Notes under the pieces: generated by a model | Databases searched by the model: none | What the model saw: the letters and a program-made list of their open reading frames with translations, nothing else | Told to the model about the DNA's origin: nothing | Position numbers and translations under genes: made by a program | DNA from: an uncultured Methanomassiliicoccaceae archaeon | Lineage (GTDB): Archaea > Thermoplasmatota > Thermoplasmata > Methanomassiliicoccales > JACIVX01 | Length of the DNA: 64,000 nucleotides | NCBI GenBank assembly: GCA_964544915.1 | Contig: CAZJDY010000015.1 | Coordinates: 1,248 to 65,247, forward strand | Direction: 5' to 3' | Part shown: positions 25,886-43,250 of the stretch, one piece after another | Layout: each line of letters opens with the position of its first letter | How positions within the stretch are numbered: the stretch's first letter is position 1

Positions 25886-26021
25886 CATTATCGATCTAGA
25901 GAATAGAGCTGAGGAATTTCTCAATGTCCGAGACAACAAGAGCGCTTCCGCAATACGGACAGTTGGTCAGCCTGTCAATTGAAGTGTCTTTGTTTATTGT
26001 CATCTCGTGCTAATGGTCCGT

Positions 26022-26576: not shown

Positions 26577-26658
26577 CCAAGTGACCTCCTTCAGGGTATT
26601 TTGCATAACATATATATTCTATTCGTTGACGATCCCGGTATGTTCGTCTTCCGGTCTT

Positions 26659-26696
26659 TCCCCATCTGCCGTCAGAACCGTCGGAAGTGTCAGAAG
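26659..26696 (-). repeat. Island motif 1, copy E (longest form)
   Basis: Plus strand: tccccatctgccgtcagaaccgtcggaagtgtcagaag. Minus-strand reading: CTTCTGACACTTCCGACGGTTCTGACGGCAGATGGGGA. Confidence 0.9.
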
Positions 26697-26865
26697 CCTC
26701 GAAAAAATCGAAGTCGCTATCCTTAACTGAACAGACCGGCGTTTTCTTGGTGTTTTCGTCATTTCCCTAGCAGTTGAATATAAAAAAAGTCCCTGGTTCC
26801 ACTTCTCCCGACTGGCGTTCCCAAATCACGAATTTCCGTGTTTCATTCTTTGCGAGGCATGCCCT

Positions 26866-28095: not shown

Positions 28096-28232
28096 GGTGT
28101 ACCATCTTCGTATGAGACTCCAGAACAGGTGAGTGATTCTTCTATGTTTCTACTTTCTCGAAGTGATGATATCGGGCAAGATTGGTGTGACGACCAACCA
28201 TAGCAACGGTTAAGACCAAAATCCTGTGAAAT

Positions 28233-29180: not shown

Positions 29181-29184
29181 ACCT

Positions 29185-29976: not shown

Positions 29977-30952
29977 AGAAGATCATCGCAAGGACCCCTA
30001 CTGGGATTGAAAGCCAGATGGACGTGAGAGCACTGAGGATTCCTGCAGTGGCGGCTATGTCATAGTTAATTCCACTGGCAGTGAAGATGGCGGAGGAAAC
30101 GACGACGTTGCTGCTTCCCGCCGATAGAAACACCGCGCTGAGAGACGCGATGCTTGCCGTTGCGACGACCGCAACGAGACTCGCCTGTACGCCAAGCGCC
30201 TCCATGATAAGGAATAGACGGACAATTTCGTTCGTCCAGATTACGATTGTAAGGGCGCCAGCATATGCAATCAATCTTCGTTTACCCTCTATCTTTGTCG
30301 AGTGGATTGCAGAGTTGAATGAGCCAACGAATCCCTTGATGCTATTCGAAAGTTTTCTTCCTCTCTCCCCCTTTGCTATCATCCGTACGGTTTTAGCCAT
30401 AAGATTGCCTGATTTTGCGAGGAACTTGGGTATTGCCAGCATATAGATGATGAGGAAATTCACAATCACCATGACTACAACAGTGGCGATTAGCTGATTC
30501 CTCATGTCCTCCACCAAGAAGGTAAGGAGGAGCATCAGGCTTGTAACGCACAGAATCGTCAATACTATAAAATCCATTAGTCTCTCCGACACAACGGTCG
30601 CAAGACAGGTGCCGATGCCGACACTCTCCTTAGCCCTCATCCCGTATACTCGACTTGCCTCTCCTACCACCCTTCCAGGAGTGACGTTGTTCAGGGCCTG
30701 AGAGAATGAGAATGTGGCAAATATCGAGGCGAAACGTATCTTATTCCCGGTACTGCGCATCAGCAACCCCCAGCGAAAGCTCTTCACCACGAGATTGATG
30801 AAGTAGAGTAATACGACAGAAGCGATGATAACAAGGTCAACTCCCACGAGGGCGTCTCCGACAGACTCAGGATTTGAAATCACGATCGTTGCGGCTATCA
30901 GTCCAACCGAGATGGCAATGTTGACCTTGGTGCTTCCGTTTATCTTCCTCAA
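29924..30952 (-). CDS. Flippase-like / lysylphosphatidylglycerol-synthase TM-domain (UPF0104) membrane protein
   Basis: 342 aa, about 8 helices. FRWGLLMR...TPGRVGE-like motif (NVTPGRVVGEASRV). Confidence 0.6.
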   Translation of the reverse strand: MRKINGSTKVNIAISVGLIAATIVISNPESVGDALVGVDLVIIASVVLLYFINLVVKSFRWGLLMRSTGNKIRFASIFATFSFSQALNNVTPGRVVGEASRVYGMRAKESVGIGTCLATVVSERLMDFIVLTILCVTSLMLLLTFLVEDMRNQLIATVVVMVIVNFLIIYMLAIPKFLAKSGNLMAKTVRMIAKGERGRKLSNSIKGFVGSFNSAIHSTKIEGKRRLIAYAGALTIVIWTNEIVRLFLIMEALGVQASLVAVVATASIASLSAVFLSAGSSNVVVSSAIFTASGINYDIAATAGILSALTSIWLSIPVGVLAMIFYEGRHKPSISTDSQESQ

Positions 30953-31052
30953 CGATTACTCAACTCCTCCCCTCAAAGTTGACTTCTTGACAGAAACGAC
31001 CTAGAATTGGCAAAAGGAGGATAAATAGTGTACCTAGCAGCGGTCAACCTCC

Positions 31053-31090
31053 TCTCCATCTGCCACCAGGACCGCTGGAAAGTGTCAGAG
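31053..31090 (-). repeat. Island motif 1, copy F (degenerate)
   Basis: Plus strand: ctctccatctgccaccaggaccgctggaaagtgtcagagg. Confidence 0.6.
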
Positions 31091-31270
31091 GAATGGATCG
31101 GGCGAAGCCCGAACGCTTTCGATCCGCTTGTTATCTGAATTGGGAAGAATGTGGGGCTCGCCCGAGACCGAACTCTGCACAATCCAGATGGGCAAAATCA
31201 AAATGCAATTCTCGCACCTTAACGCATGACCAGCCCATGAAACCCCTTCCCCCTTTTTCTCCTGATCTGT

Positions 31271-31299
31271 AACCCCATCTGCCGTCAGAACCGTCAAGG
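31271..31299 (-). repeat. Island motif 1, copy G
   Basis: Plus strand: aaccccatctgccgtcagaaccgtcaagg. Confidence 0.9.
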
Positions 31300-31302
31300 C
31301 TG

Positions 31303-31321
31303 CCGGAATCGGTGATTCCGG
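31303..31321. repeat. Perfect 8-bp-arm palindrome CCGGAATC-GGT-GATTCCGG abutting motif copy G
   Basis: Read directly. Lies about 50 nt beyond the stop of GNAT paralog 2 on the minus strand. Confidence 0.6.
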
Positions 31322-31369
31322 GCGAGCCGCGCACGATTCACTACCTGGTAGCCGCCAATGGATTTGCAT

Positions 31370-32167
31370 TCATGGCGACCACGTGTATGTCCTAAACTCG
31401 CAAAGCTCTCTGAACCCAAGTTTTCTGTAGATCGGGAGACCCATTTCGCTCGCCTCGAGAACGGCAACTTCGTAGCCAGCATTCTTGGCGATTTGAAGTG
31501 GTTCCCGAGTGATCGCGGTTCCTATGCCCTTCCTTCTTGCCTCAGGGATAGTCGCGATATTGTATACGCCGGCGACGTCCTCGTGAAGGACCAGAAGGGA
31601 TACTGCAACGGGCTCTCCGTTAAGAAACCCCAGAAACCAGCGACGCGTCGAACTCATGCCAAAGCTATCGATGAGTTCTCTCCAGCCGTCCCTGATGTTT
31701 CCAGGGATTTCGAAAACGTCTGCCATTATATCGCTGCAAGTTCTCAAGGACACCCGATCCTCGACCTGCTGAATCTCGAGTCCAGAAGGCAATGGTTCGC
31801 GGTTCACAGTCCTTAGGTCGATGGCCATTCCTGGGGTCGTCCTTTCTGAGACAAACCCCCGATTCAATAAGAAGTCGTCGAGCTCTGCTAGAGTGCTTGA
31901 GGGACCCAGAACCCATCTCATTGGAAGTCCAGTGTTCTTGAAATGTGACATCGCCACCTCGGCCCTTTCCGAGAAATCACTTGAGCCGAATCTCGGGCCG
32001 AGAACGCCGTTCAGTAAGGCCATGGGAAGACCGCTCGAACATACGATCATGTCTGGTTCCCTACGCAAGAATGAACCTGGAATGCCAGTGCAGAGAGCTA
32101 TGATAGCTTCGTAGTAGGTCCTCTCAATAGCTCGAATCAACTCTTTCTCTTCGAATCCTCCTATCAT
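31370..32167 (-). CDS. GNAT family N-acetyltransferase, two-domain type (paralog 2)
   Basis: 265 aa. RRKGIGTAI...LGF motif. Alignable along its full length to 19790-20605. Confidence 0.8.
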   Translation of the reverse strand: MIGGFEEKELIRAIERTYYEAIIALCTGIPGSFLRREPDMIVCSSGLPMALLNGVLGPRFGSSDFSERAEVAMSHFKNTGLPMRWVLGPSSTLAELDDFLLNRGFVSERTTPGMAIDLRTVNREPLPSGLEIQQVEDRVSLRTCSDIMADVFEIPGNIRDGWRELIDSFGMSSTRRWFLGFLNGEPVAVSLLVLHEDVAGVYNIATIPEARRKGIGTAITREPLQIAKNAGYEVAVLEASEMGLPIYRKLGFRELCEFRTYTWSP

Positions 32168-32313
32168 AGCACTCAGAACTCTCAGATTACATGCTGCAAA
32201 CGGTTAGATAGTGTTTTGGTTTTGTCGCTCTGTCGAAAATGAGAAGGAGAAAGCAGTCCAGCTTCGCACAGTAGCCCCTTATGTGACCCAGGGACAAAAG
32301 CAAAGAGGTCTCT

Positions 32314-32342
32314 CTCCCCTTCTGCCGTCAGAACTGTCAAGG
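32314..32342 (-). repeat. Island motif 1, copy H
   Basis: Plus strand: ctccccttctgccgtcagaactgtcaagg. Confidence 0.8.
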
Positions 32343-32502
32343 AGGAGCGGGTTGAGTGGGATTCTTACCCGCGATTCTGACTAGCAAGAGGTCGATTTGT
32401 ACCGTTTACGGTACAAAGCACCTGTTTGAAGGTATGAAAGATAGACCAAACCTCTTCCATTTTTCCCTTTTGAAATACCCTTGGTATGTCCAGATGATAG
32501 CT

Positions 32503-33066
32503 TCAGGGCGAGCTGAGGATGGTGGCGGCGAACTCATCCACCTTTCCCTGCCAGCCTTCCTCCAGCGGCCCCTTCATCTTCTCCCCTGAAACTAAGAATA
32601 TCTTGTCGGCAACTTTCACCAGCCCCTTCCCCCTCAAGATCTCATCCAGGATAGGTATGGTCTTCCTCCAGCGGTTGAGTCCTTCCTCCGTCGGCATCAG
32701 CCCGGTCTTCTTATCAGGCACCGCGTCACCGTGGGTCGCGAATATGGCACACTTTGTTCCCGACGGCAGTGAGACCTTCTTGATGAAACGGCGCATGCTC
32801 CCTAGTGGCCCGCCGAATCGCGTGGGTGACCCAAAGACGTACAGGTCGGCGAGGGGCAGCTCCTTAGGCTTCGACTCATCGATATGATGCACGTTCACCT
32901 GATGGCCTTTGGTCTCCATGACCCGCCGTAACTCCTCGGCGACCTTCGCTCCGTTCCTGAATTTCGAGGCGTGATATAGCTCAATCTTGATGAGGATCCC
33001 CCGGCCATGGCGAATGCAACTAATCCCTATTAATGATTTCTTGCAAGCCGGCTCCAAAACCTTCAA
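32503..33066 (-). CDS. Flavodoxin-like fold protein
   Basis: ILIKIELYHASKFRNGAKVAEEL...LYVFGSPTRFG pattern. The true start may be downstream of ORF-track 33066. Confidence 0.6.
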   Translation of the reverse strand: MKVLEPACKKSLIGISCIRHGRGILIKIELYHASKFRNGAKVAEELRRVMETKGHQVNVHHIDESKPKELPLADLYVFGSPTRFGGPLGSMRRFIKKVSLPSGTKCAIFATHGDAVPDKKTGLMPTEEGLNRWRKTIPILDEILRGKGLVKVADKIFLVSGEKMKGPLEEGWQGKVDEFAATILSSP

Positions 33067-33093
33067 GTCTGTCGCGCTGCAATCTCCGAATCT

Positions 33094-33615
33094 GTGTGTG
33101 GTAGGTTCACGTTGATATTCGACTCGGAGTTCTTCAGGAGGTTCGCTCTACAATCAAGGAACGTCGAGATCTCCACAAGATACAATATCGCGCCGACGCA
33201 GGAGGTTCCGATAATCGTCAATGACGGCAGGAACAAGGTCTTCATGATGAGGTTCGGTCTTATCCCCTCCTGGTCGAAGGAAAAGAAAACGAGATACAGC
33301 CTCATCAACGCAAGGGCCGAGACCGTCACAAAGAAGCCGATGTTCCGCCGACTTCTCGCCAAGCATCGCTGCCTAGTTCCTACGACCGGCTTCTACGAAT
33401 GGAAGAAGGTCGGCAGTCGCAAGACCCCTCATTTCATTCGCGTGAAGTATGAGAACTACTTCGCACTCGCCGGACTCTGGGACCATTGGAAGGATCCGAA
33501 AGGAGAGGAGATCAAGTCCTTCACCATCATAACAACCAAGGCAAATGATGTCCTGAGCGAAATACATCCCCGGATGCCGGTGATACTCAGGAAAGAAGAT
33601 GAGGTATCTGGGTAG
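33094..33615 (+). CDS. SRAP (SOS-response-associated peptidase / abasic-site processing) domain protein, C-terminally short
   Basis: MCGRFTL (Cys2), INARAET, GFYEWKK and EIHPRMPVIL are SRAP catalytic motifs. It ends at 173 aa, 17 nt inside the integrase ORF. Confidence 0.8.
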   Translation: MCGRFTLIFDSEFFRRFALQSRNVEISTRYNIAPTQEVPIIVNDGRNKVFMMRFGLIPSWSKEKKTRYSLINARAETVTKKPMFRRLLAKHRCLVPTTGFYEWKKVGSRKTPHFIRVKYENYFALAGLWDHWKDPKGEEIKSFTIITTKANDVLSEIHPRMPVILRKEDEVSG

Positions 33616-34507
33616 TGTGTTCGAAGGCTTGAAGTCGCAAGGACTCATAAGCACGACCGACCCCAGGCACATAGGGCGGCGGGAGATCCAAGAACTCCTC
33701 TGTTATTTCAGGAAGAAAGGACTGGACGTCTCGACCCAGGATACCCACTTGAAGTATCTCAAAGCCATCCTGAAGACCTTCAAGAACCATGTGATCGATG
33801 ACATGGAATCCGAGGGGGTCAGGTTCCCGAAGCCCATTAAGAAGCCGATTTTTGCCTTGTCGATCGAGGAGCTGACCAAGATGTTCGCCTCGGTTAAGGA
33901 AATGGACCGGTGGGAGGGGTCGTTGGCGCGGGGGATAATCGCGCTCCATTTCGCTACCGGAGTTCGACCGGGGGAGCTACGAATGGCCCATGTTGAGGAT
34001 TTGAATCTAGAAGAGGGGACCTTTTTCGTTCGATTCCCTAAAGGACTGGGCAGATGGGCTTCACCGGAAAAGATCCCGCTCATTCGGGGCGACGTGGCAC
34101 ATCTACTGCGGCAATATCTCGAAGAAAGGGAAGAGTATCTGAAAGCGCGCGGCATCGACAAGGCGATAGCTCTATTCCCCAGTATCCGTAGCAAAACTGG
34201 ATTCTATTCCCGCCAAAGGTTCCAGGACATCAAGGAAGACATTGAGAGAATGTCAGGGGTCAAGTTCAAGTTGAAGGACTTCAGGCCAACCCTGGCAAGT
34301 ATTACGGTAGCAGGTGATCTCAGTCGATTGCCTGCCGTCTCGGCGCAACTGAGGCACTTGGACCCAAAGACAACGACGGATTTCTATGCGAGAATCGAAC
34401 TGAACACCGTCACTCGGCAGCTTCGGGACGTGTGGAAGGAAAACCCGACAACAATGTACAATACACCCGTTATTGAGAAAGAATATGACATATCTGGCTA
34501 TCAGTAA
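33599..34507 (+). CDS. Tyrosine recombinase / integrase
   Basis: 302 aa. Box I HFATGVRPGEL. C-terminal LRHLDPKTTTDFYARI with a candidate nucleophilic Tyr. N-terminal SAM-like core-binding helices (THLKYLKAILKTF). Confidence 0.85.
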   Translation: MRYLGSVFEGLKSQGLISTTDPRHIGRREIQELLCYFRKKGLDVSTQDTHLKYLKAILKTFKNHVIDDMESEGVRFPKPIKKPIFALSIEELTKMFASVKEMDRWEGSLARGIIALHFATGVRPGELRMAHVEDLNLEEGTFFVRFPKGLGRWASPEKIPLIRGDVAHLLRQYLEEREEYLKARGIDKAIALFPSIRSKTGFYSRQRFQDIKEDIERMSGVKFKLKDFRPTLASITVAGDLSRLPAVSAQLRHLDPKTTTDFYARIELNTVTRQLRDVWKENPTTMYNTPVIEKEYDISGYQ

Positions 34508-34514
34508 TGGACAT

Positions 34515-34532
34515 TCCCGACAGGCCCGCCAC
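34515..34532 (+). repeat. attR: 18-bp direct repeat TCCCGACAGGCCCGCCAC
   Basis: Exact copy of 17040-17057. Starts 8 nt after the integrase stop codon. Confidence 0.85.
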
Positions 34533-34613: not shown

Positions 34614-35783
34614 ATGTTCCTCACCCGGGATGAAGAAGCGGTCTTGAAAGGCGAGAAGGGATTGGGCGTCCAGCGGGCCATGGAATTGCTTGTAGCGATT
34701 GGCACCGTCTATGAGGCGGAACGTCTAATCCCAATAAGCTCGGCTCACCTCTCCGGAGTTTCCTATAAGACGATAGGCGAGGGGGGCGTCGACTTTCTGA
34801 CTAACATAGCCTCGGATTCGAAGGTCGTCGTAAAGACGACGCTTAACCCCGCGGGGATGGACCTCGTTCGCTGGGGAGAGATGAAGATCTCGAAGAGGTT
34901 CGCCGAGAGGCAACTTGAGATCATTGATTGCTATTCGAGGCTGGGTGTCGAGACCAATTGCACCTGTACCCCATACCTGGCAGGAAACCTCCCAAGAAAG
35001 GGTGATACCGTCGCCTGGGCCGAATCCTCTGCGCTCTCGTACATTAACTCGATCGTCGGCGCTCGAACGAACCGCGAAGGAGGCCCAGGGGCGCTAGCCG
35101 CCTCGATTCTCGGCAAGACACCAGCCTATGGCCTGCATCTCGACGAGAACCGGAAGCCGACCGTGGTGATAGATGCGGAGATTGACGGCGGGCTCTTCGA
35201 CCACACGCTCCTGGGGCAAGTTGTGGGCAAAAAGGTTGCGAATGCGGTCCCTTATTTTAGGAACATAAGGCCGAATCCCGACGAGGCTAAGACCCTTGCA
35301 GCGGCCATGGCCGCTTCAGGGTCTGTTGCGATGTTCCATGTAGAGGGGATGAAGCCCGAGGCAAACGATGCCGATCTGAAGGGACTCGAGAGGATTGGGG
35401 TCGAACGGAGAGATCTGATCGATGCGAGAGAAACCTTGTCCACTGGTCGGGAGCCGGATCTCATCGCTGTTGGCTGTCCACATCTGTCCGAGGCCGAGAT
35501 CCGAGATCTCGCCTCAATCTTGAAATGCAAGAGCAAGAAGACCGATATCGACGTCTGGTTCTGCACGTCGAAGGCCACGAGGAAGCGATGTCCGAAAGAG
35601 ATTGACGTACTGGAACGCTTTGGCAAGGTCCTGTGCGACACATGCATGGTCGTCGCTCCGATTGAGGATCACTATTCTTGCAGTGCCACGAATTCCGCGA
35701 AAGCGTGCAACTACCTGCCGACGCTCTGCTCGCAGAAGGTCGTCTGCGCTAGCGCGGCGGACTTGATGAAGATGGTCACATGA
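34614..35783 (+). CDS. Aconitase X large subunit (DUF521); mevalonate-5-phosphate dehydratase-type
   Basis: 389 aa. ISSAHLSGVSYKT...CTCTPYL...AWAESSA...FHVEG are motifs of DUF521/AcnX. Confidence 0.8.
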   Translation: MFLTRDEEAVLKGEKGLGVQRAMELLVAIGTVYEAERLIPISSAHLSGVSYKTIGEGGVDFLTNIASDSKVVVKTTLNPAGMDLVRWGEMKISKRFAERQLEIIDCYSRLGVETNCTCTPYLAGNLPRKGDTVAWAESSALSYINSIVGARTNREGGPGALAASILGKTPAYGLHLDENRKPTVVIDAEIDGGLFDHTLLGQVVGKKVANAVPYFRNIRPNPDEAKTLAAAMAASGSVAMFHVEGMKPEANDADLKGLERIGVERRDLIDARETLSTGREPDLIAVGCPHLSEAEIRDLASILKCKSKKTDIDVWFCTSKATRKRCPKEIDVLERFGKVLCDTCMVVAPIEDHYSCSATNSAKACNYLPTLCSQKVVCASAADLMKMVT

Positions 35784-36577
35784 TCCTGAGAGGGAGGGGA
35801 ATATTCAGGGGAATCGCAAGAGGTCCGATCGTAGCGCTGGACAGCCCTTTCAGCTTTCTCGGGGGAGTCGATCCGTCGACCGGTCTTCTCTCCGATTCAA
35901 ATGATGTCAGCATCGCCGGCAAGGTCCTCGCTTTCCCGACCGGAAAGGGGAGCACCGTCGGCTCCTATACAATGCTGGAGATGAAAAGGCAGGGAACGCT
36001 CCCGGCGGCGATTCTAAACAAGAAGGCCGAGCCGATCGTAACGACCGGTGCGGTCATGTGCGGCATCCCCCTGGTCGATTCAATCGACGTCTCAGTGCTT
36101 AGAAGCTGGGATGTGGCGATAGTGGACGGGACCGAGGGTACAGTCGAGGTCGAGGGAGTCGAAAAGAAGAGCGTTGTCACGTGCATCCTGATGAAGAGGG
36201 ACAGGTTCCTGATCCTGAAGAGGAGCGAGAAGGTCGGGACCTTCAGGGGCAAATGGGCAGGCGTCAGCGGGTACGTCGAGGTCGGCGAGGAGCCGATTCA
36301 GACAGCACTCAAGGAGATGTGCGAAGAAGTGAGGGTGACGGATGCCGAGCTTGTCAGGCAGGCCGATCCGATCGTCGTCCGTTCCGGTGAAATCGTGTGG
36401 GAGATACATCCCTTCCTCTTCAAGGTCAAGGGGGATGGGATAACGACGGACTGGGAACACACGGGGCACAGGTGGATCGTGCCGGACGAACTCCCGGGAT
36501 TCGACACTGTCCCGGGTTTCGACAGAGTGGTCGAGATGCTCCTCTCAAGGAAGATCGTTTCGACCGGAACGCGATGA
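35780..36577 (+). CDS. Aconitase X small (swivel, DUF126) subunit fused to a C-terminal Nudix hydrolase domain
   Basis: The N-terminal ~130 aa (GKVLAFPTGKGSTVGSY...LPAAILN) look like DUF126. The C-terminal ~135 aa carry a Nudix box, GYVEVGEEPIQTALKEMCEEVRV. 4-nt overlap with the large subunit. Confidence 0.75.
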   Translation: MILRGRGIFRGIARGPIVALDSPFSFLGGVDPSTGLLSDSNDVSIAGKVLAFPTGKGSTVGSYTMLEMKRQGTLPAAILNKKAEPIVTTGAVMCGIPLVDSIDVSVLRSWDVAIVDGTEGTVEVEGVEKKSVVTCILMKRDRFLILKRSEKVGTFRGKWAGVSGYVEVGEEPIQTALKEMCEEVRVTDAELVRQADPIVVRSGEIVWEIHPFLFKVKGDGITTDWEHTGHRWIVPDELPGFDTVPGFDRVVEMLLSRKIVSTGTR

Positions 36578-36614: not shown

Positions 36615-39600
36615 TCACATCGTGACGTCGACTTCTTTCTCCAGCAGGTTAAGCTCGTGGGGTTCCAGCGTCGATGGGTTTAGCGCCATCAGCAGTATGG
36701 CGTTCCTGATGGCGATTTGGTCCCTCAGCGACTGAACGAATCTCAAGACCGTGAGGAAGTTGTTGTTCGTGATGAGGTACTCGAGTCCGTCAAGCAAGAC
36801 TATGCTGCCCTTGCCAGGGTCCGCTGCGGTGATGAACTGCTCCAGGGACACGCTCAGTTTCTCGAGGTCCTTTGGCCTGAGCGTGTTCTCCTTTCCAACG
36901 TTCGATAGCCAGATGATCGGAGTGTCCCCGATGTTGTGCTTTGCCTTGATCTTCAGCGGGTAGTTCCTTGTGACGCAGAAGCCCTTGAGGCCCTCGGACA
37001 GGGCCTTGACGAAAAACGCGTAGGCCCGCTCGGCCTTCTCCTCTTTAATCAGGTAGGCGAATGACGGCTCGAGCTTGTAGTCCTCGGTCGAGATCGCCTC
37101 GCCCTCCTCCTCGACCTCCTCTTCCTCCGCGACCTCCGAGGGCGCCTCCGCCCCGCACGACGGGCATGTCACCGCATCCGGCGGAATGCTGGTCCCGCAC
37201 TTCTCGCACTTCACAGGGTTCTTGAATCCGCCAGCGTGGACATAGGCCATGATACTCTCTGCCGTCTTCGCACCGATCCCCTTGACATGACGGATCTCAT
37301 CCTTTGACGCAGCCTCGATCTTCTCTATGCCGTCGAACCCGGCATCGTACAGCATCTCCGCCTTGACCATGTTCATCCTCGGGATCCTGAGCAGGTAGGG
37401 GATGAGCTTATCCCTGGGCATTGATCCACCTTTGGCGACCAGGCTCTTCCCGCAGGACGAGCAGGTCTCGGACCCTTCTTTTATAGGGGTGCCGCATTCG
37501 GGGCATGTCTGCTCCGCGCCCGCCCCAGTCTTCTGCAAGTAGTGAATGATCTTCCTCGCGTCCGTCTTCGAGACGTTTCTTATCGCGGCTATCTCCTCCT
37601 CTGAAAGAGACTTCAGGTCGGTCGGCGACTTGTGCCCCGCCTCCACCAATCCAAGCGCCCCTTCCCGAGACAGTCCGGGTATCGCAGAGAACTGGCCTAT
37701 CGACTCCCTGGTATGTAGAGACGTCACGCCGACCTCGATGTCCTCTCCCTCAACCTCCCAGCTGACGACCCTCTCCCCTCCGGGTTCTTCAGTGAAATTC
37801 ATGTCCTTCGCCCTGGTCTCCTTCATCATGTGTTCCTTCCAGACCTTGAAGAACTCGATGAGCTTCGCAGAGGCCTTGACCTTCGCAGTGATGAACTCCT
37901 CCACGTCCAGATCCATGTCTTTTCTCATCTGCTGTATGCGCCTTATCAGGTCCCTGGCATAGCCCTCCGCTTCGATTTCCGGAGTCATCTCGAAGTCGAC
38001 GTAGACTTCGCCCTCGGAGAACTTAACGCTCGTGACGTCTGGGGGCAGTGAGGTTGTGAACGAGACCATGTTTGGTTCGATCTTGATCATCTGGCCTTCA
38101 ATGCCGAGAGAGTACTCTCCCTTTTCGATGCTCTCCTTTATCTGACATGCAGGCCTGCTCTTCAGAAGGATCGCTATCTTGCTGGACCATTGGCGATAGA
38201 CCTTCCCGATTGCCATCGGGTTCGGGATCACGTTGAGTATCAGATCTTTCCAGTCCTCATCAGGGTTGACGAACTCGACCCCTTTGAGGTTGGCCTGAGA
38301 GGCCAGGACGCCCTCGAGGGTTTTCAACATGTCCAGCGTTTCATTCGTGTTGGCCTTGATTGTCAGCCTTCTGAGCGGCCAGCGGAGCTTCACGCCCCTC
38401 GATTGCCTCTCCCTGGTCACTATCTCTACTATCTCCTTGACCAGGGACATTGCCCCTTCCAGCCTGTCATCCGCCTTTGTCAGGTCAGGAGTGGGCCAAT
38501 CCGACATGTGGACGGAGGCTTTCGAACCGTCGAGGTTCTGGTATATCTCCTCCGTTATGTGAGGGCAGAACGGCGCTAGCAGCTTGGTGAGCGACATCAA
38601 CGATTCGTAAAGGACCTTATAGGCCGCGATCTTGTCCAAGTCCCCTTCTTCTCTCCACATCCTGTCCCGGATCAGCCGTACGTACCATCGCGACAGGTCC
38701 TCGAGGATGAACTCCTCGAGGGCCCTGCAGGCCTTGTGCAGCTCGAACGATTCGAGATGCTTCGCGACCTCGTTCTTCAGCCTCTCGCTTCTGGATACCA
38801 ACCACCTGTCCTCGGGCCGAAGCGTCGCGGTAAGGCTCGCGTAGTCTACGGCATTCGGATCGAAGTGGTCGATTGACATGTACGTGGTCGCGAAGTTGCA
38901 GACGTTCCAGAGGACGTTCAGCGTGCGTCGAGCGTTCTTCACCCCTTCGCGCTGGAAGGCGATGTCCTCCCACGGGGCGTTTGCCTTCATCATGTAAAAT
39001 CTGAGCGCGTCCGCGCCGTGCTCGCCTATGACCTCTGCCGGTTCGATGGCGTTCCCCTTGCTCTTCGACATCGGTTGCCCCTGAGGGTCCAGTATCCAGC
39101 CGTGCATGAGCACCGACTCATATGGCGCTCTCTCGAAACCTATGCATCCTGCGGCGAGCTGCGAGTAGAACCAGCCGCGCGTCTGATCATGAGCTTCGGT
39201 GATCCACTTGGCGGGCCACCATCTGTCCAGTTCCTTCCTGCTGCCGGGAAATCCCAGCTGGGCCCAGGTCGACACACCAGAGTCGAACCAGACGTCGAGG
39301 ACGTCTGGCACTCGTTTCATCTTTCCTCCACACTTGTCGCACTTCAGAGTCACGGCGTCGATCCACGGTCTGTGGAGCTCCATCCCTTCGCGGTAACCGT
39401 CGGCACCCTTGAGGTCGTTGACCGAACCGATGACCTTCATCTCCCCGCACTGGCACCGCCAGATCGGCAACGGAATGCCCCAATACCTCTGTCGTGATAT
39501 GCACCAGTCCCTTGCGTTGACGGCCCAGTCGTACTCCCGTGACGACCCCGCCCAATCGGGGGTCCACCTGACCTTATCAATCTCCTCGAGCATGAGGTCC

Positions 39601-40877
39601 TTTATCTGGGTGATTCTCAAGAACCATTGAGAGGTCGTTCTGTATATGAGAGGAGAATCACACCTCCAGCAGTGCCCGTACCTGTGCTCGAGCGAGTGAT
39701 CGTAGAACATCAATCCCTTTTCCTTCAGCGCCTGAGCGATCTCGACGTTGGCATTCCTCGCGTGCATGCCAGAGAACTTCTCTCCTGCCTCGGAGCTGAA
39801 CTTGCCGCTCTCGTCAACCGGGCAGAACGCTTCGATTCCGAACTCCTGCCCGAGCTCGAAGTCCTCGGGACCATGGCCAGGAGCGATGTGCACCAACCCT
39901 GTGTTCTCCGCGGCTACGGTCGACGAAGGTATGACGCGGTGCGTCCATTTTCCTGTCACGGTCTTCTGGTACGGGATCTCGTCTTGGAACGGGGTCAGGT
40001 ACTCCATCCCGACCAGATCGTCACCCTCTATCAGCTCGGCGATCTCGTACTCGTCCCAATCCGCAAGCGCCCCGATCTCCTCCGCGAGGTCCTCCAGCAC
40101 GATGACGCTCTCCTTCTCCTTTCCTTCCGACCGGGAATATGTAACCTTAGCATAGGTGAAATCCGGATGAACCGCCACTGCCATGTTCGCCAAGAGGGTC
40201 CAGGGTGTGGTAGTCCAGATCAACAGGGACACGCCCTCCTCGTCCCGCAGAGGTAATTTCACGTAGATCGATGGGTCGCTCTCATCCCAGAATTCGATCT
40301 CAGCTTCGGCAAGTGCAGTCTCGCAACGTGGGCACCACGACAGCACGCGATTGGCGGATATCAGCAGACCCTTGTCATACGCCCGTCTTAGCGTCCACCA
40401 AGCCGCCTCGACGTATTCCGGAGAGATAGTGAGGTAGGGGTTGTCCCAGTCCATCCATACACCGAGCTCCTTGAACTGCTCGGTCATGCGTTTCTGGAAA
40501 TCGATGGCGAAGTTCTTGCACGTGCTGACGAACTTGTCTATCCCGTAGTCCTCGATCTCCTTCTTGTTCTTCACCCCAATCGTCCGCTCGACCTTGACCT
40601 CGATCGGCAGGCCGTGCATGTCATAGCCAGGCTGATCGCGGACGTTGAACCGCTGCATTCGCTTATATCTAATGATCGTGTCCTTCAGGCTCTTGTTCCA
40701 CGCTGTTCCTAGATGGATCGAGCCAGTAGTGTAGGGAGGACCATCCACGAAGTAAAAATCCGCACCGCTCGAGCGAAGCTCCTTGACCTTCTTGTATGTG
40801 TTGTTGCGGTTCCAATTCTCTCTTACCTTCTTCTCGAGTTCCGCCGGATTGTATGTGGATTGGACCTGCTTTATCAT
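36615..40877 (-). CDS. ileS: Isoleucyl-tRNA synthetase with ~365-aa C-terminal HhH/Zn-ribbon/DUF835-like extension
   Basis: 1420 aa. PPYTTGSIHLGTA (HIGH), KMSKSKGN (KMSKS) and the editing domain are present. The tail is described in the findings. Confidence 0.95.
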   Translation of the reverse strand: MIKQVQSTYNPAELEKKVRENWNRNNTYKKVKELRSSGADFYFVDGPPYTTGSIHLGTAWNKSLKDTIIRYKRMQRFNVRDQPGYDMHGLPIEVKVERTIGVKNKKEIEDYGIDKFVSTCKNFAIDFQKRMTEQFKELGVWMDWDNPYLTISPEYVEAAWWTLRRAYDKGLLISANRVLSWCPRCETALAEAEIEFWDESDPSIYVKLPLRDEEGVSLLIWTTTPWTLLANMAVAVHPDFTYAKVTYSRSEGKEKESVIVLEDLAEEIGALADWDEYEIAELIEGDDLVGMEYLTPFQDEIPYQKTVTGKWTHRVIPSSTVAAENTGLVHIAPGHGPEDFELGQEFGIEAFCPVDESGKFSSEAGEKFSGMHARNANVEIAQALKEKGLMFYDHSLEHRYGHCWRCDSPLIYRTTSQWFLRITQIKDLMLEEIDKVRWTPDWAGSSREYDWAVNARDWCISRQRYWGIPLPIWRCQCGEMKVIGSVNDLKGADGYREGMELHRPWIDAVTLKCDKCGGKMKRVPDVLDVWFDSGVSTWAQLGFPGSRKELDRWWPAKWITEAHDQTRGWFYSQLAAGCIGFERAPYESVLMHGWILDPQGQPMSKSKGNAIEPAEVIGEHGADALRFYMMKANAPWEDIAFQREGVKNARRTLNVLWNVCNFATTYMSIDHFDPNAVDYASLTATLRPEDRWLVSRSERLKNEVAKHLESFELHKACRALEEFILEDLSRWYVRLIRDRMWREEGDLDKIAAYKVLYESLMSLTKLLAPFCPHITEEIYQNLDGSKASVHMSDWPTPDLTKADDRLEGAMSLVKEIVEIVTRERQSRGVKLRWPLRRLTIKANTNETLDMLKTLEGVLASQANLKGVEFVNPDEDWKDLILNVIPNPMAIGKVYRQWSSKIAILLKSRPACQIKESIEKGEYSLGIEGQMIKIEPNMVSFTTSLPPDVTSVKFSEGEVYVDFEMTPEIEAEGYARDLIRRIQQMRKDMDLDVEEFITAKVKASAKLIEFFKVWKEHMMKETRAKDMNFTEEPGGERVVSWEVEGEDIEVGVTSLHTRESIGQFSAIPGLSREGALGLVEAGHKSPTDLKSLSEEEIAAIRNVSKTDARKIIHYLQKTGAGAEQTCPECGTPIKEGSETCSSCGKSLVAKGGSMPRDKLIPYLLRIPRMNMVKAEMLYDAGFDGIEKIEAASKDEIRHVKGIGAKTAESIMAYVHAGGFKNPVKCEKCGTSIPPDAVTCPSCGAEAPSEVAEEEEVEEEGEAISTEDYKLEPSFAYLIKEEKAERAYAFFVKALSEGLKGFCVTRNYPLKIKAKHNIGDTPIIWLSNVGKENTLRPKDLEKLSVSLEQFITAADPGKGSIVLLDGLEYLITNNNFLTVLRFVQSLRDQIAIRNAILLMALNPSTLEPHELNLLEKEVDVTM

Positions 40878-41000: not shown

Positions 41001-42032
41001 TCAAAAGATGTCGAGGCTGCTCTGCGAGTGCGTCTGAGCGCGTTCCGCCTTGTGCTTTTCCTCGATCCTGCTCAGCGCGCCCTCCACTCGAGACCTCGAG
41101 AAGTCGTGGCCTTCGCACAGGAACTCGATCACCTTCTCCTTGTCCGGCGCCCTCCAATCCAGTCGATAGTCGCCTGTCTTTTCGTACGCCAGGAAGATGC
41201 GTTTCACCGCTTCGCACCTGGGGATGTCGGCCCCTATGGACTTGAGCACCGCTTCAATGCTTCCATGCTCTCGTATCAGCTTCAGGGCCTTCTTCGGGCC
41301 GATCCCGGAAATGCCGCTGTTGTAATCGGTCCCCATCAGGATGCACAGATCGATAAGCTGCTCACTTGAGAGTTCCAGTTCGTGGAGGACCCTGCTCAGT
41401 TCGATGACCTCGATGCTCACTGTCTTGTAATCGTTCCTTCCCGGCATCTTCCTCTTGCCAGTGATGGTCAGGTTCCGCACTAATCTGGGGGCTCCGAAAA
41501 GAAGGGAATCGAAGTCCTGGGAGGACGCGGCCCAGACGCCTCCTTTCAGGGCCATGTATGCGGCCTGTGCCTCGCCCTCCTCCGGGGCCTGCACGATAGG
41601 AATGCCCATGTAGGTCAGGAGAATCCGGGATGACTCCACGATCTCGTTCGTGATCCTTGAGGCCTGGGTCGCCTTCGAGAATGCCTTCCCGTAATCGCCC
41701 TTCTTCAGTGCCTCCTCCCATTCCATCTTCGCCTTCACCCTCTTCTCGGATCTCTCCAGTATCGTCTCTCGCTTCATTTCCGGGGGGATGCCGTCGAAGA
41801 CGTAGGAGGGGCGGATCCCCGCCTCGATCAAGTTCGTATTTCTGTAAAGCAGACCGGCCAGGTGGGAGGTTATCCTGCCTCTCGAATCCATCAAAGGCGT
41901 GCCATCGGGCTGCCTTATCACCGATAGGAACTGGTATATCGCATTGTAGGCATCGACAGCTACGCTCTTCCCGGCCAGGTCCTCGAGCTGCACGACATCG
42001 ACCGGGACGATGTCTGAGAGATTTACGCCCAT
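41001..42032 (-). CDS. fen: Flap endonuclease 1
   Basis: 343 aa. MGVNLSDIV...AVDAYNAIYQFL...SQDFDSLLFG...GTDYN are FEN-1/XPG motifs. Confidence 0.92.
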   Translation of the reverse strand: MGVNLSDIVPVDVVQLEDLAGKSVAVDAYNAIYQFLSVIRQPDGTPLMDSRGRITSHLAGLLYRNTNLIEAGIRPSYVFDGIPPEMKRETILERSEKRVKAKMEWEEALKKGDYGKAFSKATQASRITNEIVESSRILLTYMGIPIVQAPEEGEAQAAYMALKGGVWAASSQDFDSLLFGAPRLVRNLTITGKRKMPGRNDYKTVSIEVIELSRVLHELELSSEQLIDLCILMGTDYNSGISGIGPKKALKLIREHGSIEAVLKSIGADIPRCEAVKRIFLAYEKTGDYRLDWRAPDKEKVIEFLCEGHDFSRSRVEGALSRIEEKHKAERAQTHSQSSLDIF

Positions 42033-42599: not shown

Positions 42600-43250
42600 C
42601 TACCCGAACCGGTGCCAGGTCTCCATCTCCTTTTTGAGATCGGGACACTCGAAGAGGGCGCTCCCCGCAGCGAGCACGGATGCGCCCGCCTCCACTGCCA
42701 TCTTTCCGGTCCTTGCGTTTATTCCCCCATCGACCTCGATCTCGACCCCAAGCCCTTCTCTGTCGATGTATTCGCGAGCCTCGTGGATCTTCGGGAGCAT
42801 ATCGGTGATGAACTCCTGACCGGCAAAGCCAGGGTGAACGGTCATCACGAGCAAGAGGTCAATCTCCCGCATGTAGGGTTCGACCTTCTTGAACGGCGTC
42901 TCAGGGTTGAGAGAAAGCCCGCACCTCCTCCCCAGGGACCTTATCCTGTTCAGCGTGGATCGGACCTTCTCGGTCGCCTCCACGTGGACGGTGATTATGT
43001 CGGAACCGGCGCTCGCGAAAGGTTCGACGTATTTATCCGGGTTCATTATCATGAGGTGGACGTCGAATGGTATCGAGCAAAAGTGCCTGACTTGACGGAC
43101 GACGATGGGGCCGATCGTGATGTTCGGCACGAAGTTGCCGTCCATGACGTCCACGTGGACCCAATCCGCTCCAGCTTCCTCGAGCTTCCTCACCTCATCA
43201 CCAAGCTTGGAGAAGTCCGCGGACAGGATGGACGGGGCTATCTTGATCAT
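42600..43250 (-). CDS. rpe: Ribulose-phosphate 3-epimerase
   Basis: 216 aa. IAPSILSADF...HVDVMDG.FVPN...FDVHLM...MTV.PGF.GQ.F motifs. Confidence 0.92.
   Translation of the reverse strand: MIKIAPSILSADFSKLGDEVRKLEEAGADWVHVDVMDGNFVPNITIGPIVVRQVRHFCSIPFDVHLMIMNPDKYVEPFASAGSDIITVHVEATEKVRSTLNRIRSLGRRCGLSLNPETPFKKVEPYMREIDLLLVMTVHPGFAGQEFITDMLPKIHEAREYIDREGLGVEIEVDGGINARTGKMAVEAGASVLAAGSALFECPDLKKEMETWHRFG

What the first reader, a model, noticed from the sequence alone, without database searches (positions are those of the whole stretch)
36615..37725. Isoleucyl-tRNA synthetase carries a ~365-aa C-terminal extension: HhH, Zn-ribbon, HhH, Zn-ribbon, acidic linker, DUF835-like domain
The ORF is continuous for 1420 aa, whereas archaeal IleRS enzymes I know are roughly 1050 aa. 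The canonical C-terminal domain ends at ...VSWEVEGEDIEVGVTSL. After it come the following segments. (1) A helix-hairpin-helix-like segment (FSAIPGLSREGALGLVEAGHKSPTDL). (2) CPECG...CSSCG. (3) A second HhH (IRHVKGIGAKTAESIMAY). (4) CEKCG...CPSCG. (5) An EEEEVEEEGE linker. (6) About 135 aa matching my recollection of DUF835 (FCVTRNYP...IIWLS...IVLLDGLEYLI..NNF..VLRFVQSLRD...LNP..L). DUF835 has no known function. Fusion of nucleic-acid-binding HhH and Zn modules plus DUF835 to an essential aaRS suggests an added regulatory, tethering or tRNA/DNA-linked activity.
Basis: partly seen in the sequence, partly recalled or inferred. Interest (0 to 1): 0.65.

Follow-up and report, generated by a model that had tools for sequence, protein, structure and literature searches.

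The report
Isoleucyl-tRNA synthetase with dead-ATPase docking tail
The cell's isoleucine-charging enzyme is permanently fused, through a flexible leash, to an inactivated KaiC/RecA-like domain that archaea otherwise attach to sensor proteins; the fusion is real, is conserved across at least 193 species of Thermoplasmatota and has not been studied.

Summary
Window 36615-40877 (-) is one 1420-aa ORF holding a complete IleRS (TIGR00392, 965 bits; HIGH, KMSKS and editing motifs intact). After it come HhH, Zn-ribbon, HhH, Zn-ribbon, an acidic linker and DUF835 (111 bits; cutoff 33).

It is not an assembly artefact. Relatives of the tail occur in 193 species-representative genomes. Of the best 80, all Methanomassiliicoccales or other Thermoplasmatota, about 58 have core and tail in one uninterrupted frame. 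The rest are cut by contig ends or scattered frameshifts, never by a stop at the junction. Cultured Methanomassiliicoccus luminyensis has it too (1301 aa).

DUF835 is as conserved as the catalytic core (68% vs 66% identity). The HhH and Zn modules vary or are absent, and linkers reach more than 1100 disordered residues. The DUF835 model (pLDDT 94) has a KaiC/ArlH/RecA fold without a Walker A loop.

Elsewhere DUF835 ends sensor proteins (REC, PAS, GAF, 7TM). IleRS is the only enzyme found fused to it.

Most likely it is a leash-held docking or oligomerisation module linking IleRS to a KaiC-type assembly. That function is inferred, not shown.

Databases name these proteins only "isoleucine--tRNA ligase", and I found no paper on the fusion. 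Verdict: a new variant of a known kind, of moderate to high interest.

The parts
36615..40877 (-). Single ORF of 1420 aa: IleRS core plus C-terminal tail (stop codon 36615-36617)
   Evidence: ORF; TIGR00392 ileS equivalog, 964.7 bits vs cutoff 621.4; identical 1420-aa protein P0121 in a JGI metagenome
38979..40823 (-). Class I catalytic domain with the CP1 editing insertion (res 19-633). Motifs: HLGT 55-58 (HIGH), MSKSKG 603-608 (KMSKS), TTTPWT 222-227 (editing)
   Evidence: PF00133, E 4e-126; motif positions
38370..38810 (-). Anticodon-binding domain (res 690-836)
   Evidence: PF08264, E 7e-38
37722..38297 (-). Canonical IleRS C-terminal domain (DUF5915, res 861-1052); the normal enzyme ends here
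   Evidence: PF19302, E 4e-23; aligns to the C-terminus of solved IleRS 8c8u, 934-1018 of 1032
37524..37706 (-). HhH module 1 (res 1058-1118). Aligned in all 61 full-length orthologs, though one distant long-tail variant (P0250) lacks HhH. Weakly conserved (36% identity) and not basic
   Evidence: (helices, pLDDT >95)
37434..37514 (-). Zn ribbon 1 (res 1122-1148; CPEC...CSSC); present in only 32 of 61 orthologs
37233..37415 (-). HhH module 2 (res 1155-1215; canonical GIG hairpin at 1200-1202). Resembles the RadA N-terminal domain, Hel308 domain 5 and the NusA AR domains
37143..37220 (-). Zn ribbon 2 (res 1220-1245; CEKC...CPSC); present in 43 of 61 orthologs
37074..37142 (-). Acidic, disordered linker (res 1246-1268, net charge -10). 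It is the only long low-confidence segment of the model. Its length varies from 12 to 69 aa in close orthologs, and the whole inter-domain region reaches >1100 aa in distant ones
   Evidence: pLDDT <50 at tail residues 211-222
36618..37070 (-). DUF835 (res 1270-1420): an inactivated KaiC/RecA-like domain. Motifs: WLSN 1323-1326, RPKDLEKL 1334-1341, EYLITNNNF 1366-1374. The Walker A position reads CVTRNYP

Best explanation
SHOWN. The gene encodes a complete, apparently active isoleucyl-tRNA synthetase. Its C-terminus continues into a beads-on-a-string tail: HhH domain, Zn ribbon, HhH domain, Zn ribbon, acidic disordered linker, and a terminal DUF835 domain. DUF835 has the KaiC/ArlH/RecA fold but lacks the Walker A P-loop, so it is a pseudo-ATPase. 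The fusion is ancestral to a large part of Thermoplasmatota. The terminal domain is under purifying selection as strong as that on the catalytic core, whereas the spacer modules come and go.

INFERRED. DUF835 is a protein-protein docking or oligomerisation module. Like its relatives ArlH, PH0284 and KaiC, which form rings and dock onto partner ATPase rings, it either self-associates or joins a KaiC-family ATPase assembly. The flexible leash keeps the synthetase tethered to that assembly while leaving the enzyme free to work. The consequence would be localisation, clustering or regulated sequestration of IleRS. That would be a prokaryotic counterpart of the appended docking domains that hold eukaryotic synthetases in the multi-synthetase complex. 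The HhH and Zn modules act mainly as spacers, possibly with weak, non-specific nucleic-acid or protein contacts.
For: A real and intact enzyme:
- TIGR00392 scores 965 bits against a cutoff of 621.
- The HIGH, KMSKS and editing motifs are present.

A real fusion:
- Relatives of the tail occur in 193 species genomes.
- About 58 of the 80 fetched loci have core and tail in one frame of 1372-1541 aa.
- The interruptions are frameshifts at scattered positions, not at the junction.
- Apparent stand-alone tails lie directly downstream of an IleRS core in loci that contain scaffold N runs.
- Cultured M. luminyensis has the fusion (P0168).

Selection:
- DUF835 shows 68% identity and 26% invariant columns, against 66% and 24% for the catalytic core.
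- The HhH modules show 36-43% identity. The Zn ribbons are present in 32 and 43 of 61 orthologs. The linker shows 16% identity.

Fold:
- The DUF835 model has pLDDT 94.3 and pTM 0.90.
- It matches FlaH/ArlH 4yds (TM 0.66), PH0284 2dr3 (0.70-0.71), KaiC (0.6-0.7) and RecA.
- The only meaningful PDB sequence relatives are FlaH 4yds and 4wia, aligned over the Walker B region.
- The Walker A position reads G..GLCITR..P across the family.
- The literature calls DUF835 'iKaiC' (PMC5847659).

Leash:
- The tail's pTM is only 0.49 despite a pLDDT of 90.6, and the linker is disordered.
- Tails range from ~245 aa (M. luminyensis) to ~1290 aa (P0246), through acidic/Pro-rich inserts with 23-29% D/E.

Docking precedent and partners:
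- ArlH hexamerises and binds the ArlI ring (PMC10983859).
- 17 of the best 150 family representatives carry two tandem DUF835 domains.
- A KaiC-family ATPase gene lies next to stand-alone DUF835 genes in 2 of 6 non-IleRS contexts examined (L087/L088 and L097).
Against: - No partner has been identified, and no oligomeric state was computed or measured.
- Only 6 non-IleRS DUF835 contexts were examined, so the KaiC adjacency (2 of 6) is anecdotal.
- DUF835 (~150 aa) is much smaller than the ring-forming relatives (220-240 aa; TM normalised to the target is ~0.5). It may lack the elements needed for ring formation.
- In all other architectures DUF835 follows sensor domains. That fits a signalling-output role (rival 1) at least as well as a passive tether.
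- I could not check whether these genomes also encode a second, tail-less IleRS.
Confidence: 0.45

Rival explanations
1. Signal-input model. IleRS occupies the position that REC, PAS, GAF or 7TM sensor domains occupy in other DUF835 proteins. The enzyme's state (isoleucine or tRNA-Ile occupancy, i.e. charging status) would be relayed through DUF835 to a KaiC-type signalling hub. This would be an archaeal amino-acid-sufficiency signal, comparable in logic to GCN2 or to LARS1-mTORC1.
For: - Outside IleRS, DUF835 is always C-terminal to input modules: REC (P0409, P0416), PAS (P0430), GAF (P0444) and HTH+REC (P0456).
- Among 58 further long family members, HisKA_7TM occurs in 8, GAF in 8 and PAS in 7.
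- Membrane or PAS-like N-termini occur in P0449, P0411 and P0426.
- The literature lists DUF835 as a response-regulator output domain (PMC5847659).
- IleRS is the only enzyme found fused to it.
Against: - The connection is a disordered, acidic leash of highly variable length, from 12 to more than 1100 residues, with optional folded beads. That is poorly suited to transmitting a conformational change from the enzyme to DUF835.
- No downstream pathway is known for DUF835.
Confidence: 0.22
2. Cis-acting nucleic-acid-binding appendage. The HhH domains and Zn ribbons (and perhaps a DUF835 ring, as in the tRNA-associated RecA-like Elp456 ring) bind tRNA non-specifically. This would raise tRNA-Ile affinity or channel tRNA, as the EMAPII/Trbp111 or Lys-rich extensions do in other synthetases.
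For: - The HhH and Zn-ribbon modules pass their Pfam thresholds.
- The HhH parts resemble the nucleic-acid-associated HhH domains of RadA, Hel308 and haloarchaeal ribosomal protein eL32.
- The DUF835 fold also matches Elp456 (4a8j_D, TM 0.66), a RecA-like hexamer that is part of the tRNA-modifying Elongator complex (PMC5286394).
- Stand-alone DUF835 genes sit beside translation and transcription genes: class I LysRS, L11/NusG and Spt4.
Against: - The HhH modules are acidic to neutral (median pI 5.1-5.6, net charge about -2), unlike known tRNA-binding appendages.
- They are the least conserved folded parts (0-1 invariant columns).
- The Zn ribbons are missing in about a third to a half of orthologs.
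- M. luminyensis has one HhH and no ribbon, and P0250 has no HhH at all.
- What is conserved is DUF835, for which no nucleic-acid binding is known.
Confidence: 0.15
3. DNA-linked moonlighting. The tail is a RadA-like unit (HhH N-terminal domain plus RecA-like core) that brings IleRS to DNA or to the recombination/replication machinery.
For: - Foldseek aligns the whole tail over ~300 columns to RAD51/RadA, covering both the HhH N-terminal domain and the core (E ~6e-6).
- NCBIfam RadA and Hel308 models hit the HhH region.
- The FEN-1 gene is the conserved upstream neighbour.
- One stand-alone DUF835 gene directly follows Orc1/Cdc6.
- Vertebrate IARS1 has a DNA-repair link through its own appended domain (PMC9643514).
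Against: - The RadA model scores 27-31 bits against a cutoff of 259.
- The rmsd is 12-19 Å because only the parts match, not the arrangement.
- Walker A is absent.
- HhH is not part of DUF835 proteins in general, so the resemblance is a domain combination and not descent.
- The FEN-1 adjacency may simply reflect shared ancestry within one clade.
Confidence: 0.07
4. Artefact. The long ORF would be a mis-assembly or a lost stop codon joining ileS to a separate downstream gene.
For: Some database entries show the tail as a separate short protein (P0030, P0081, P0108).
Against: - Those short entries are explained. L003 is a continuous 1439-aa ORF. L085 and L086 have an IleRS core directly upstream and contain scaffold N runs. 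The others are frameshifts at scattered sites.
- About 58 independent species-level genomes keep one frame.
- Codon usage is uniform across core and tail.
- An identical protein exists in another dataset.
Confidence: 0.01

Closest known systems
Canonical archaeal/eukaryote-type isoleucyl-tRNA synthetase (TIGR00392; solved examples 8c8u, 8wnd)
   Same: It has the full catalytic, editing, anticodon-binding and C-terminal (DUF5915) domains, and it scores far above the equivalog cutoff.
   Different: It carries about 365 extra C-terminal residues (HhH, Zn, HhH, Zn, linker, DUF835), which canonical enzymes of ~1030-1080 aa lack.
Vertebrate cytoplasmic IleRS (IARS1) with its C-terminal UNE-I domain
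   Same: Both are IleRS enzymes with a non-catalytic C-terminal appended module used for protein-protein docking. UNE-I binds EARS1 in the multi-synthetase complex and also BRCA1 (PMC9643514).
   Different: UNE-I is a pair of tandem UBX domains. Here the module is an inactivated KaiC/RecA-like domain on an HhH/Zn/acidic leash. The origins are independent, and a docking function is only inferred here.
DUF835 / 'iKaiC' output domain of archaeal response regulators and sensor proteins (PF05763; Galperin et al. 2018)
   Same: It is the same Pfam family, well above threshold. It has the same extreme C-terminal position and the same motifs (TR..P, WLS, LDG.EYL, N.F).
   Different: The upstream partner is a housekeeping enzyme instead of a REC, PAS, GAF or 7TM sensor. 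The IleRS-linked subfamily is unusually conserved (RPKDLEKL, EYLxTNNxF).
ArlH/FlaH and other single-domain KaiC-like proteins (4yds, 4wia, PH0284 2dr3, Sso2452 2w0m)
   Same: These are the best structural matches (TM 0.66-0.71) and the only meaningful sequence-level PDB relatives. ArlH forms hexamers that dock on another ATPase ring (PMC10983859).
   Different: ArlH binds ATP through an intact Walker A and autophosphorylates. DUF835 has no P-loop and is ~70-90 residues shorter.
RadA/RAD51 recombinases
   Same: Both have an HhH domain N-terminal to a RecA-like core, and Foldseek aligns both parts.
   Different: There is no Walker A, and the RadA model scores far below its cutoff. A Zn ribbon and an acidic linker are inserted between the parts. 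The resemblance is one of architecture, not membership.
Elp456 ring of Elongator
   Same: It is a RecA-like fold protein lacking classical recombinase function that works within a tRNA-handling machine (4a8j_D, TM 0.66; PMC5286394).
   Different: It is a eukaryotic hetero-hexamer and is not fused to a synthetase. The similarity is at fold level only.
IleRS with an N-acetyltransferase domain (NCBIfam NF040702, ileS_w_GNAT)
   Same: It is another curated example of a prokaryotic IleRS carrying an extra domain (listed).
   Different: The appended domain is a different one (GNAT). That model scores 440 bits against a cutoff of 1999 here, so this protein is not a member.

Membership tests
Isoleucyl-tRNA synthetase (TIGR00392 equivalog) | Whole-protein score above the curated equivalog cutoff | tested here: met
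   964.7 bits vs cutoff 621.4, covering residues 6-851
Isoleucyl-tRNA synthetase (TIGR00392 equivalog) | Class I signature motifs HIGH and KMSKS, and the CP1 editing motif | tested here: met
   HLGT 55-58, MSKSKG 603-608, TTTPWT 222-227
Isoleucyl-tRNA synthetase (TIGR00392 equivalog) | Aminoacylation of tRNA-Ile; being the sole or housekeeping copy in the genome | not testable with these tools
The conserved syntenic position across the clade suggests it is the ortholog.
DUF835 (PF05763) | Score above the Pfam gathering threshold over the full-length profile | tested here: met
   111-114 bits vs 33.1; profile positions 3-135 of 136
KaiC/RecA-superfamily ATPases | RecA-like alpha/beta core fold | tested here: met
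   The model has pLDDT 94.3. Foldseek prob 1.00 to FlaH, PH0284, KaiC and RecA, with TM 0.6-0.71 normalised to the query.
KaiC/RecA-superfamily ATPases | Walker A P-loop (GxxxxGK[ST]) | tested here: not met
   The strand-loop-helix at that position reads G..GLCITR..P family-wide (CVTRNYP in the window). No Gly-Lys-Thr is present.
KaiC/RecA-superfamily ATPases | Walker B acidic residue and catalytic glutamate(s) | tested here: inconclusive
   A Walker-B-like hhhhDG.E (LLDGLEYL) is retained and aligns to the FlaH Walker B region. The position where KaiC-like proteins carry catalytic Glu appears to read WLSN, but that assignment is by pattern only, not by superposition.
RadA/RAD51 recombinase | Score above the family cutoff; ATPase core with Walker A | tested here: not met
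   NF003301 scores 27-31 bits vs cutoff 259, and TIGR02236 scores 23-29 bits vs 361. Both hit only the HhH region. Walker A is absent.
Helix-hairpin-helix domain (PF14520 HHH_5) | Score above the gathering threshold; helical hairpin structure | tested here: met
   63 bits vs 27, in two stretches. The model shows five-helix bundles at pLDDT >94. A canonical GIG hairpin occurs only in module 2.
Helix-hairpin-helix domain (PF14520 HHH_5) | Nucleic-acid binding | not testable with these tools
   The only indirect evidence is that the modules are not basic (median pI 5.1-5.6) and that their nearest relatives include the protein-binding NusA AR domains.
Zinc ribbon (PF13240) | Two CxxC knuckles; score above threshold | tested here: met
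   48 bits vs 25. CPEC/CSSC at 1125/1139 and CEKC/CPSC at 1224/1238.
Eukaryote-style multi-synthetase-complex docking domain | Homology to UNE-I (UBX), WHEP, GST-like or EMAPII modules | tested here: not met
   No such Pfam hit anywhere in the tail at E <= 1. The analogy is functional only.

The most novel reading that the evidence does not exclude
An essential aminoacyl-tRNA synthetase is hard-wired into the archaeal KaiC-type signalling network. DUF835 would be the transmitter through which isoleucine or tRNA-Ile charging status is reported to a KaiC-family ATPase hub, or through which that hub controls translation capacity. This would give archaea an amino-acid-sensing pathway built on a synthetase, analogous in logic to GCN2 or LARS1-mTORC1 in eukaryotes but evolved independently. 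It would also give the first function for the ~2,750-cluster DUF835 family.
Probability: 0.2. Interest if true: 0.8.

Novelty: new variant of a known kind. Interest (0 to 1): 0.6.

Why it matters
Appended, non-catalytic domains that connect synthetases to signalling and to large complexes are regarded as largely a eukaryotic elaboration. Here a whole archaeal lineage keeps such a domain on its IleRS, and selection on that domain is as strong as on the active site. The lineage includes cultivable, gut-relevant methanogens of the Methanomassiliicoccales.

The domain belongs to a large family (about 2,750 clusters at 50% identity) with no assigned function. In every other architecture examined here it ends sensor or scaffold proteins rather than enzymes. 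The fusion therefore works as a 'Rosetta stone' in two directions:
- It suggests that IleRS is tethered to, or regulated by, a KaiC-type assembly.
- It gives DUF835 its first concrete link to translation. That link is reinforced by stand-alone DUF835 genes next to class I LysRS, L11/NusG and Spt4.

The idea is directly testable in M. luminyensis or with recombinant protein.

Tried and rejected
- Sequencing or assembly fusion: rejected.
- Natural two-gene versions: the candidates P0004, P0016, P0030, P0081, P0108 and P0406 all turned out to be frameshifted long-read assemblies, loci with scaffold N runs downstream of an IleRS core, or partial gene calls inside a continuous ORF.
- A pyrrolysine or in-frame-stop explanation for the split calls: not needed, because the breaks are frame changes. 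The one in-frame TAA (L005) is a single-base difference from TAC.
- Other DUF835 copies in the window: none found with a custom HMM on the six-frame translation.
- Other synthetases or enzymes fused to DUF835: none among the 74 long family members scanned; only IleRS.
- tRNA genes or Rfam RNAs in the window that might relate to the gene: none.
- The key review on archaeal KaiC-like proteins (Makarova et al. 2017, mBio) is not in the held library. Its content is cited only through papers that quote it.
- Literature on the fusion itself: one paper mentions DUF835 at all, and none mentions IleRS-DUF835.
- Docking of the tail onto the IleRS core could not be assessed. The full protein exceeds the predictor's length limit, and the tool returns no inter-domain error map.
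Full report
**1. What is in the sequence**

Window 36615..40877 on the minus strand is one ORF of 1420 codons.

Pfam places these domains on it:
- tRNA-synt_1 at residues 19-633.
- Anticodon_1 at 690-836.
- DUF5915, the IleRS C-terminal domain, at 861-1052.
- Two HHH_5 stretches and two Zn_Ribbon_1 stretches.
- DUF835 at 1280-1415 (111 bits whole-protein, 114 bits tail-only; gathering score 33.1).

NCBIfam's ileS equivalog TIGR00392 scores 965 bits against a cutoff of 621.

The class I motifs are present: HLGT 55-58, MSKSKG 603-608 and the editing motif TTTPWT 222-227. The four CxxC pairs of the two ribbons lie at 1125/1139 and 1224/1238.

The finding's coordinates (36615-37725) are the tail.

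**2. Is the fusion real?**

Core and tail have the same composition: GC3 is 0.77 vs 0.80 and the codon-frequency correlation is 0.87. An identical 1420-aa protein is present in an independent JGI dataset (P0121).

A scan of one genome per species with a tail alignment found relatives in 193 genomes. The 80 best are all Methanomassiliicoccales or other Thermoplasmata MAGs.

In each of these loci I walked the reading frame of the DUF835 match upstream to the first stop. In about 58 of the 80, the whole IleRS core (query residues 1-1055) lies in the same uninterrupted frame, giving ORFs of 1372-1541 aa.

The remainder are cut by contig ends or by frame changes at scattered positions inside the core or the tail. 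These occur mostly in long-read MAGs and never at a conserved junction.

Database entries that look like stand-alone tail proteins are explained as follows:
- L003 is in fact a continuous 1439-aa ORF.
- L085 and L086 have an IleRS core directly upstream of the 'stand-alone' gene and contain scaffold N runs.
- L090 is frameshifted.

A full-length search returned 120 hits of 1300-1446 aa that carry PF05763 (the one shorter hit, P0178, is cut off by the end of its contig). Where a source names them, the name is simply 'isoleucine--tRNA ligase'. One is the RefSeq/UniRef protein of cultured Methanomassiliicoccus luminyensis (P0168, 1301 aa).

More distant Thermoplasmatota carry even longer versions of 1436-2329 aa.

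The artefact hypothesis is rejected.

**3. Anatomy and selection**

I aligned 61 full-length orthologs:

| Module | Identity to window | Invariant columns | Present in orthologs |
|---|---|---|---|
| Catalytic core | 66% | 24% | 61/61 |
| DUF835 | 68% | 26% | 61/61 |
| HhH1 | 36% | 0% | 61/61 |
| HhH2 | 43% | 2% | 61/61 |
| Zn ribbon 1 | 23% | 0% | 32/61 |
| Zn ribbon 2 | 38% | 0% | 43/61 |
| Acidic linker | 16% | 0% | 60/61 |

Tail architecture varies widely between lineages:
- M. luminyensis has only HhH1, a Pro/Ala-rich linker and DUF835.
- Some lineages have three ribbons.
- P0250 has no HhH at all, only PEE-type repeats, ribbons and DUF835.
- P0246 has 1146 residues of mostly acidic/Pro-rich sequence between the core and DUF835.

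The AlphaFold model of the tail is locally confident (pLDDT 90.6) but has a pTM of only 0.49. The acidic linker is its one long low-confidence stretch. In other words, the tail is a set of folded beads on a flexible string.

The HhH modules are not basic: median pI is 5.1-5.6 and net charge about -2.

What evolution keeps is a flexible leash ending in DUF835. In the IleRS-linked subfamily DUF835 has near-invariant motifs WLSN, RPKDLEKL, EYLxTNNxF and QxLRD.

**4. What DUF835 is**

A model of the domain alone is very confident (pLDDT 94.3, pTM 0.90).

Foldseek against the PDB gives these matches:
- ArlH/FlaH 4yds: E 1.5e-6, TM 0.66.
- The KaiC-like PH0284 hexamer 2dr3: TM 0.70-0.71.
- KaiC CI/CII: TM 0.6-0.7.
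- RecA.
- Sso2452.
- Elp456: TM 0.66.

A family-wide sequence profile finds only FlaH (4yds, 4wia) as a meaningful relative in the PDB, aligned over the Walker B region.

Where these ATPases have the P-loop, DUF835 has G..GLCITR..P, with an invariant Arg and Pro and no GK[ST]. A Walker-B-like LLDGLEYL remains.

This agrees with Galperin et al. 2018, who list DUF835 as an 'iKaiC' (inactivated KaiC-like) output domain of archaeal response regulators (PMC5847659).

The whole tail also aligns to RadA/RAD51, matching the HhH N-terminal domain plus the RecA core (E ~6e-6). However, the rmsd is 12-19 Å, the RadA models score an order of magnitude below their cutoffs, and HhH is not a general companion of DUF835. 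I treat this as a resemblance of architecture, not as membership.

**5. The company DUF835 keeps**

An exhaustive search finds 2,753 cluster representatives.

Among the 74 long members scanned, the only enzyme attached is IleRS. The others carry HisKA_7TM, PAS, GAF, TPR, extracellular repeats plus a TM helix, or Zn ribbons with acidic repeats and long helical regions.

Shorter members include REC-DUF835, PAS-DUF835, GAF-DUF835 and HTH-REC-DUF835. There are also forms with a membrane or PAS-like N-terminus. DUF835 is at the extreme C-terminus in nearly all of the best 150 hits.

Seventeen of the best 150 representatives have two tandem DUF835 domains, reminiscent of the KaiC duplication.

Six neighbourhoods of non-IleRS DUF835 genes were examined:
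- One has a KaiC-family ATPase 7 nt downstream (L087/L088).
- One (Altiarchaeales; similar places on four further contigs) has a divergent KaiC-family ATPase on one side and a class I lysyl-tRNA synthetase 19 nt downstream on the other (L097).
- One directly follows Orc1/Cdc6 (L093).
- One follows Spt5/NusG and L11 (L094-096).
- One follows Rpb7 and Spt4 (L098/099).
- One lies among glycosyltransferases (L091/092).

These are single observations. They point towards KaiC-type partners and towards information-processing genes.

**6. How it most likely works**

Shown: this is an intact IleRS, covalently and ancestrally joined by a flexible leash to a strongly conserved KaiC/RecA-fold pseudo-ATPase.

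Inferred (confidence about 0.45): DUF835 is a docking or oligomerisation module, like ArlH, which hexamerises and binds the ArlI ring (PMC10983859). It would tether IleRS to a KaiC-type assembly or to copies of itself. The result would be localisation, clustering or sequestration of the enzyme. The leash's extreme variability in length argues for tethering rather than for allosteric transmission.

Rivals:
- IleRS as the 'input' of a DUF835 signalling protein (0.22). The sensor-type partners seen everywhere else support this, and the floppy linker weakens it.
- A cis-acting tRNA or nucleic-acid-binding appendage (0.15). This is weakened because the HhH and Zn modules are acidic to neutral, poorly conserved and dispensable.
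- A RadA-like DNA link (0.07).
- An artefact (0.01).

**7. Comparison with what is known**

The closest functional analogue is the vertebrate IARS1 UNE-I domain. It consists of tandem UBX domains that dock IleRS to EARS1 in the multi-synthetase complex and bind BRCA1 (PMC9643514). The position and logic are the same, but the fold is unrelated.

By family, the tail end is a bona fide DUF835/iKaiC domain. By fold it belongs to the KaiC/RecA superfamily, but it fails the defining Walker A test, so it should not be called an ATPase.

I found no publication describing the IleRS-DUF835 fusion, although hundreds of such proteins sit in public databases under the plain name 'isoleucine--tRNA ligase'.

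**8. Verdict**

It is a new variant of a known kind: a synthetase with an appended domain, where the appended domain is a signalling-type pseudo-ATPase of unknown function. The mechanism remains inferential. Interest is 0.6.

Noticed in passing
window 17058-34514 (direct repeats at 17035-17057 and 34510-34532; integrase 33599-34507 +): A ~17.5-kb lower-GC segment is absent from the two relatives compared (L005, L003). It is flanked by a 23-nt direct repeat (core TCCCGACAGGCCCGCCAC) and has a tyrosine-recombinase gene at its right end, so it looks like an integrated island inserted next to the AcnX/ileS cluster, with no tRNA gene at the site. Its cargo includes an SRAP peptidase, two GNAT acetyltransferases, an AAA_16+TPR STAND-like ATPase (22459-24888), glycosyltransferase and epimerase genes, and a UDG-like protein.
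   Followed up: partly
window 20732, 22423, 25851, 26659, 31272, 32315 (26-48 nt each): An intergenic motif, CCCCATCTGCCGTCAGAACCGTCAG, occurs six times, all inside the island (families D2/D3). It could be a shared promoter or regulatory element, or a small repeat element. It remains unexplained.
   Followed up: no
window 19790-20605 (-) and 31370-32167 (-): Two paralogous GNAT acetyltransferase genes, 77-83% identical at the DNA level including their flanks, lie 11.58 kb apart within the island (D1/D4/D6).
   Followed up: no
window 35780-36577 (+); also L001, L002, L003, L086, L090: The Aconitase-X small (swivel) subunit is fused to a NUDIX domain, next to the AcnX large subunit (34614-35783). 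The arrangement is conserved in all relatives and converges on the end of ileS. AcnX acts in the archaeal mevalonate pathway. The NUDIX fusion was not examined further.
   Followed up: no
L097 5001-7604 (Altiarchaeales contig; similar places on four further contigs): A membrane-anchored DUF835 gene lies 19 nt upstream of a class I lysyl-tRNA synthetase gene. It is divergent from a KaiC-family ATPase (PF06745+DUF7125) and a V4R protein. This is a second, independent link between DUF835 and a class I synthetase.
   Followed up: partly
L087 5001-6284, L088 723-2006; L093 3827-5600; L094 4230-6056; L098 362-1472: Stand-alone DUF835 genes sit directly beside a KaiC-family ATPase (7-nt gap), Orc1/Cdc6 (5-nt gap), Spt5/NusG-L11 and Rpb7-Spt4 respectively. 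This suggests that the family is tied to KaiC-type partners and to information-processing genes. Each case was seen only once.
   Followed up: partly
P0246 (2329 aa), P0243, P0242, P0250 (Thermoplasmatota MAGs): These are IleRS-DUF835 proteins with giant tails. Up to 1146 residues of acidic/Pro-rich, apparently disordered sequence (23-29% D/E) lie between the core and DUF835. P0250 has PEE-type repeats and no HhH.
   Followed up: partly
one search hit list (e.g. P0266, P0276, P0285, P0287, P0294, P0296, P0297): Seventeen of the best 150 DUF835 representatives contain two tandem DUF835 domains, recalling the CI-CII duplication of KaiC.
   Followed up: no
L005 3760-3762 (MAG OWC_0007, the closest relative at 89% identity): There is an in-frame TAA where the window has TAC (Tyr293) in the IleRS editing region. 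It is a single-base difference, either a sequencing error or a recent nonsense mutation in that MAG.
   Followed up: yes
L003 6001-6729 (GCA_014361295.1) and several NCBI/JGI entries: Public annotation often calls only the last 210-290 residues as a separate 'DUF835 domain-containing protein' inside what is a continuous IleRS ORF. P0030 starts at a Met just before HhH2. JGI gives tail fragments unrelated names such as 'amidophosphoribosyltransferase', 'FlaH' or 'rubredoxin'. Domain-architecture censuses will therefore under-count the fusion.
   Followed up: partly
window 41001-42032 (-) and 42600-43250 (-): FEN-1 (XPG_N/XPG_I) and ribulose-phosphate 3-epimerase are the conserved upstream neighbours of ileS, on the same strand, throughout the clade. 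The fen1-ileS gap is 123 nt. Whether they are co-transcribed is unknown.
   Followed up: no
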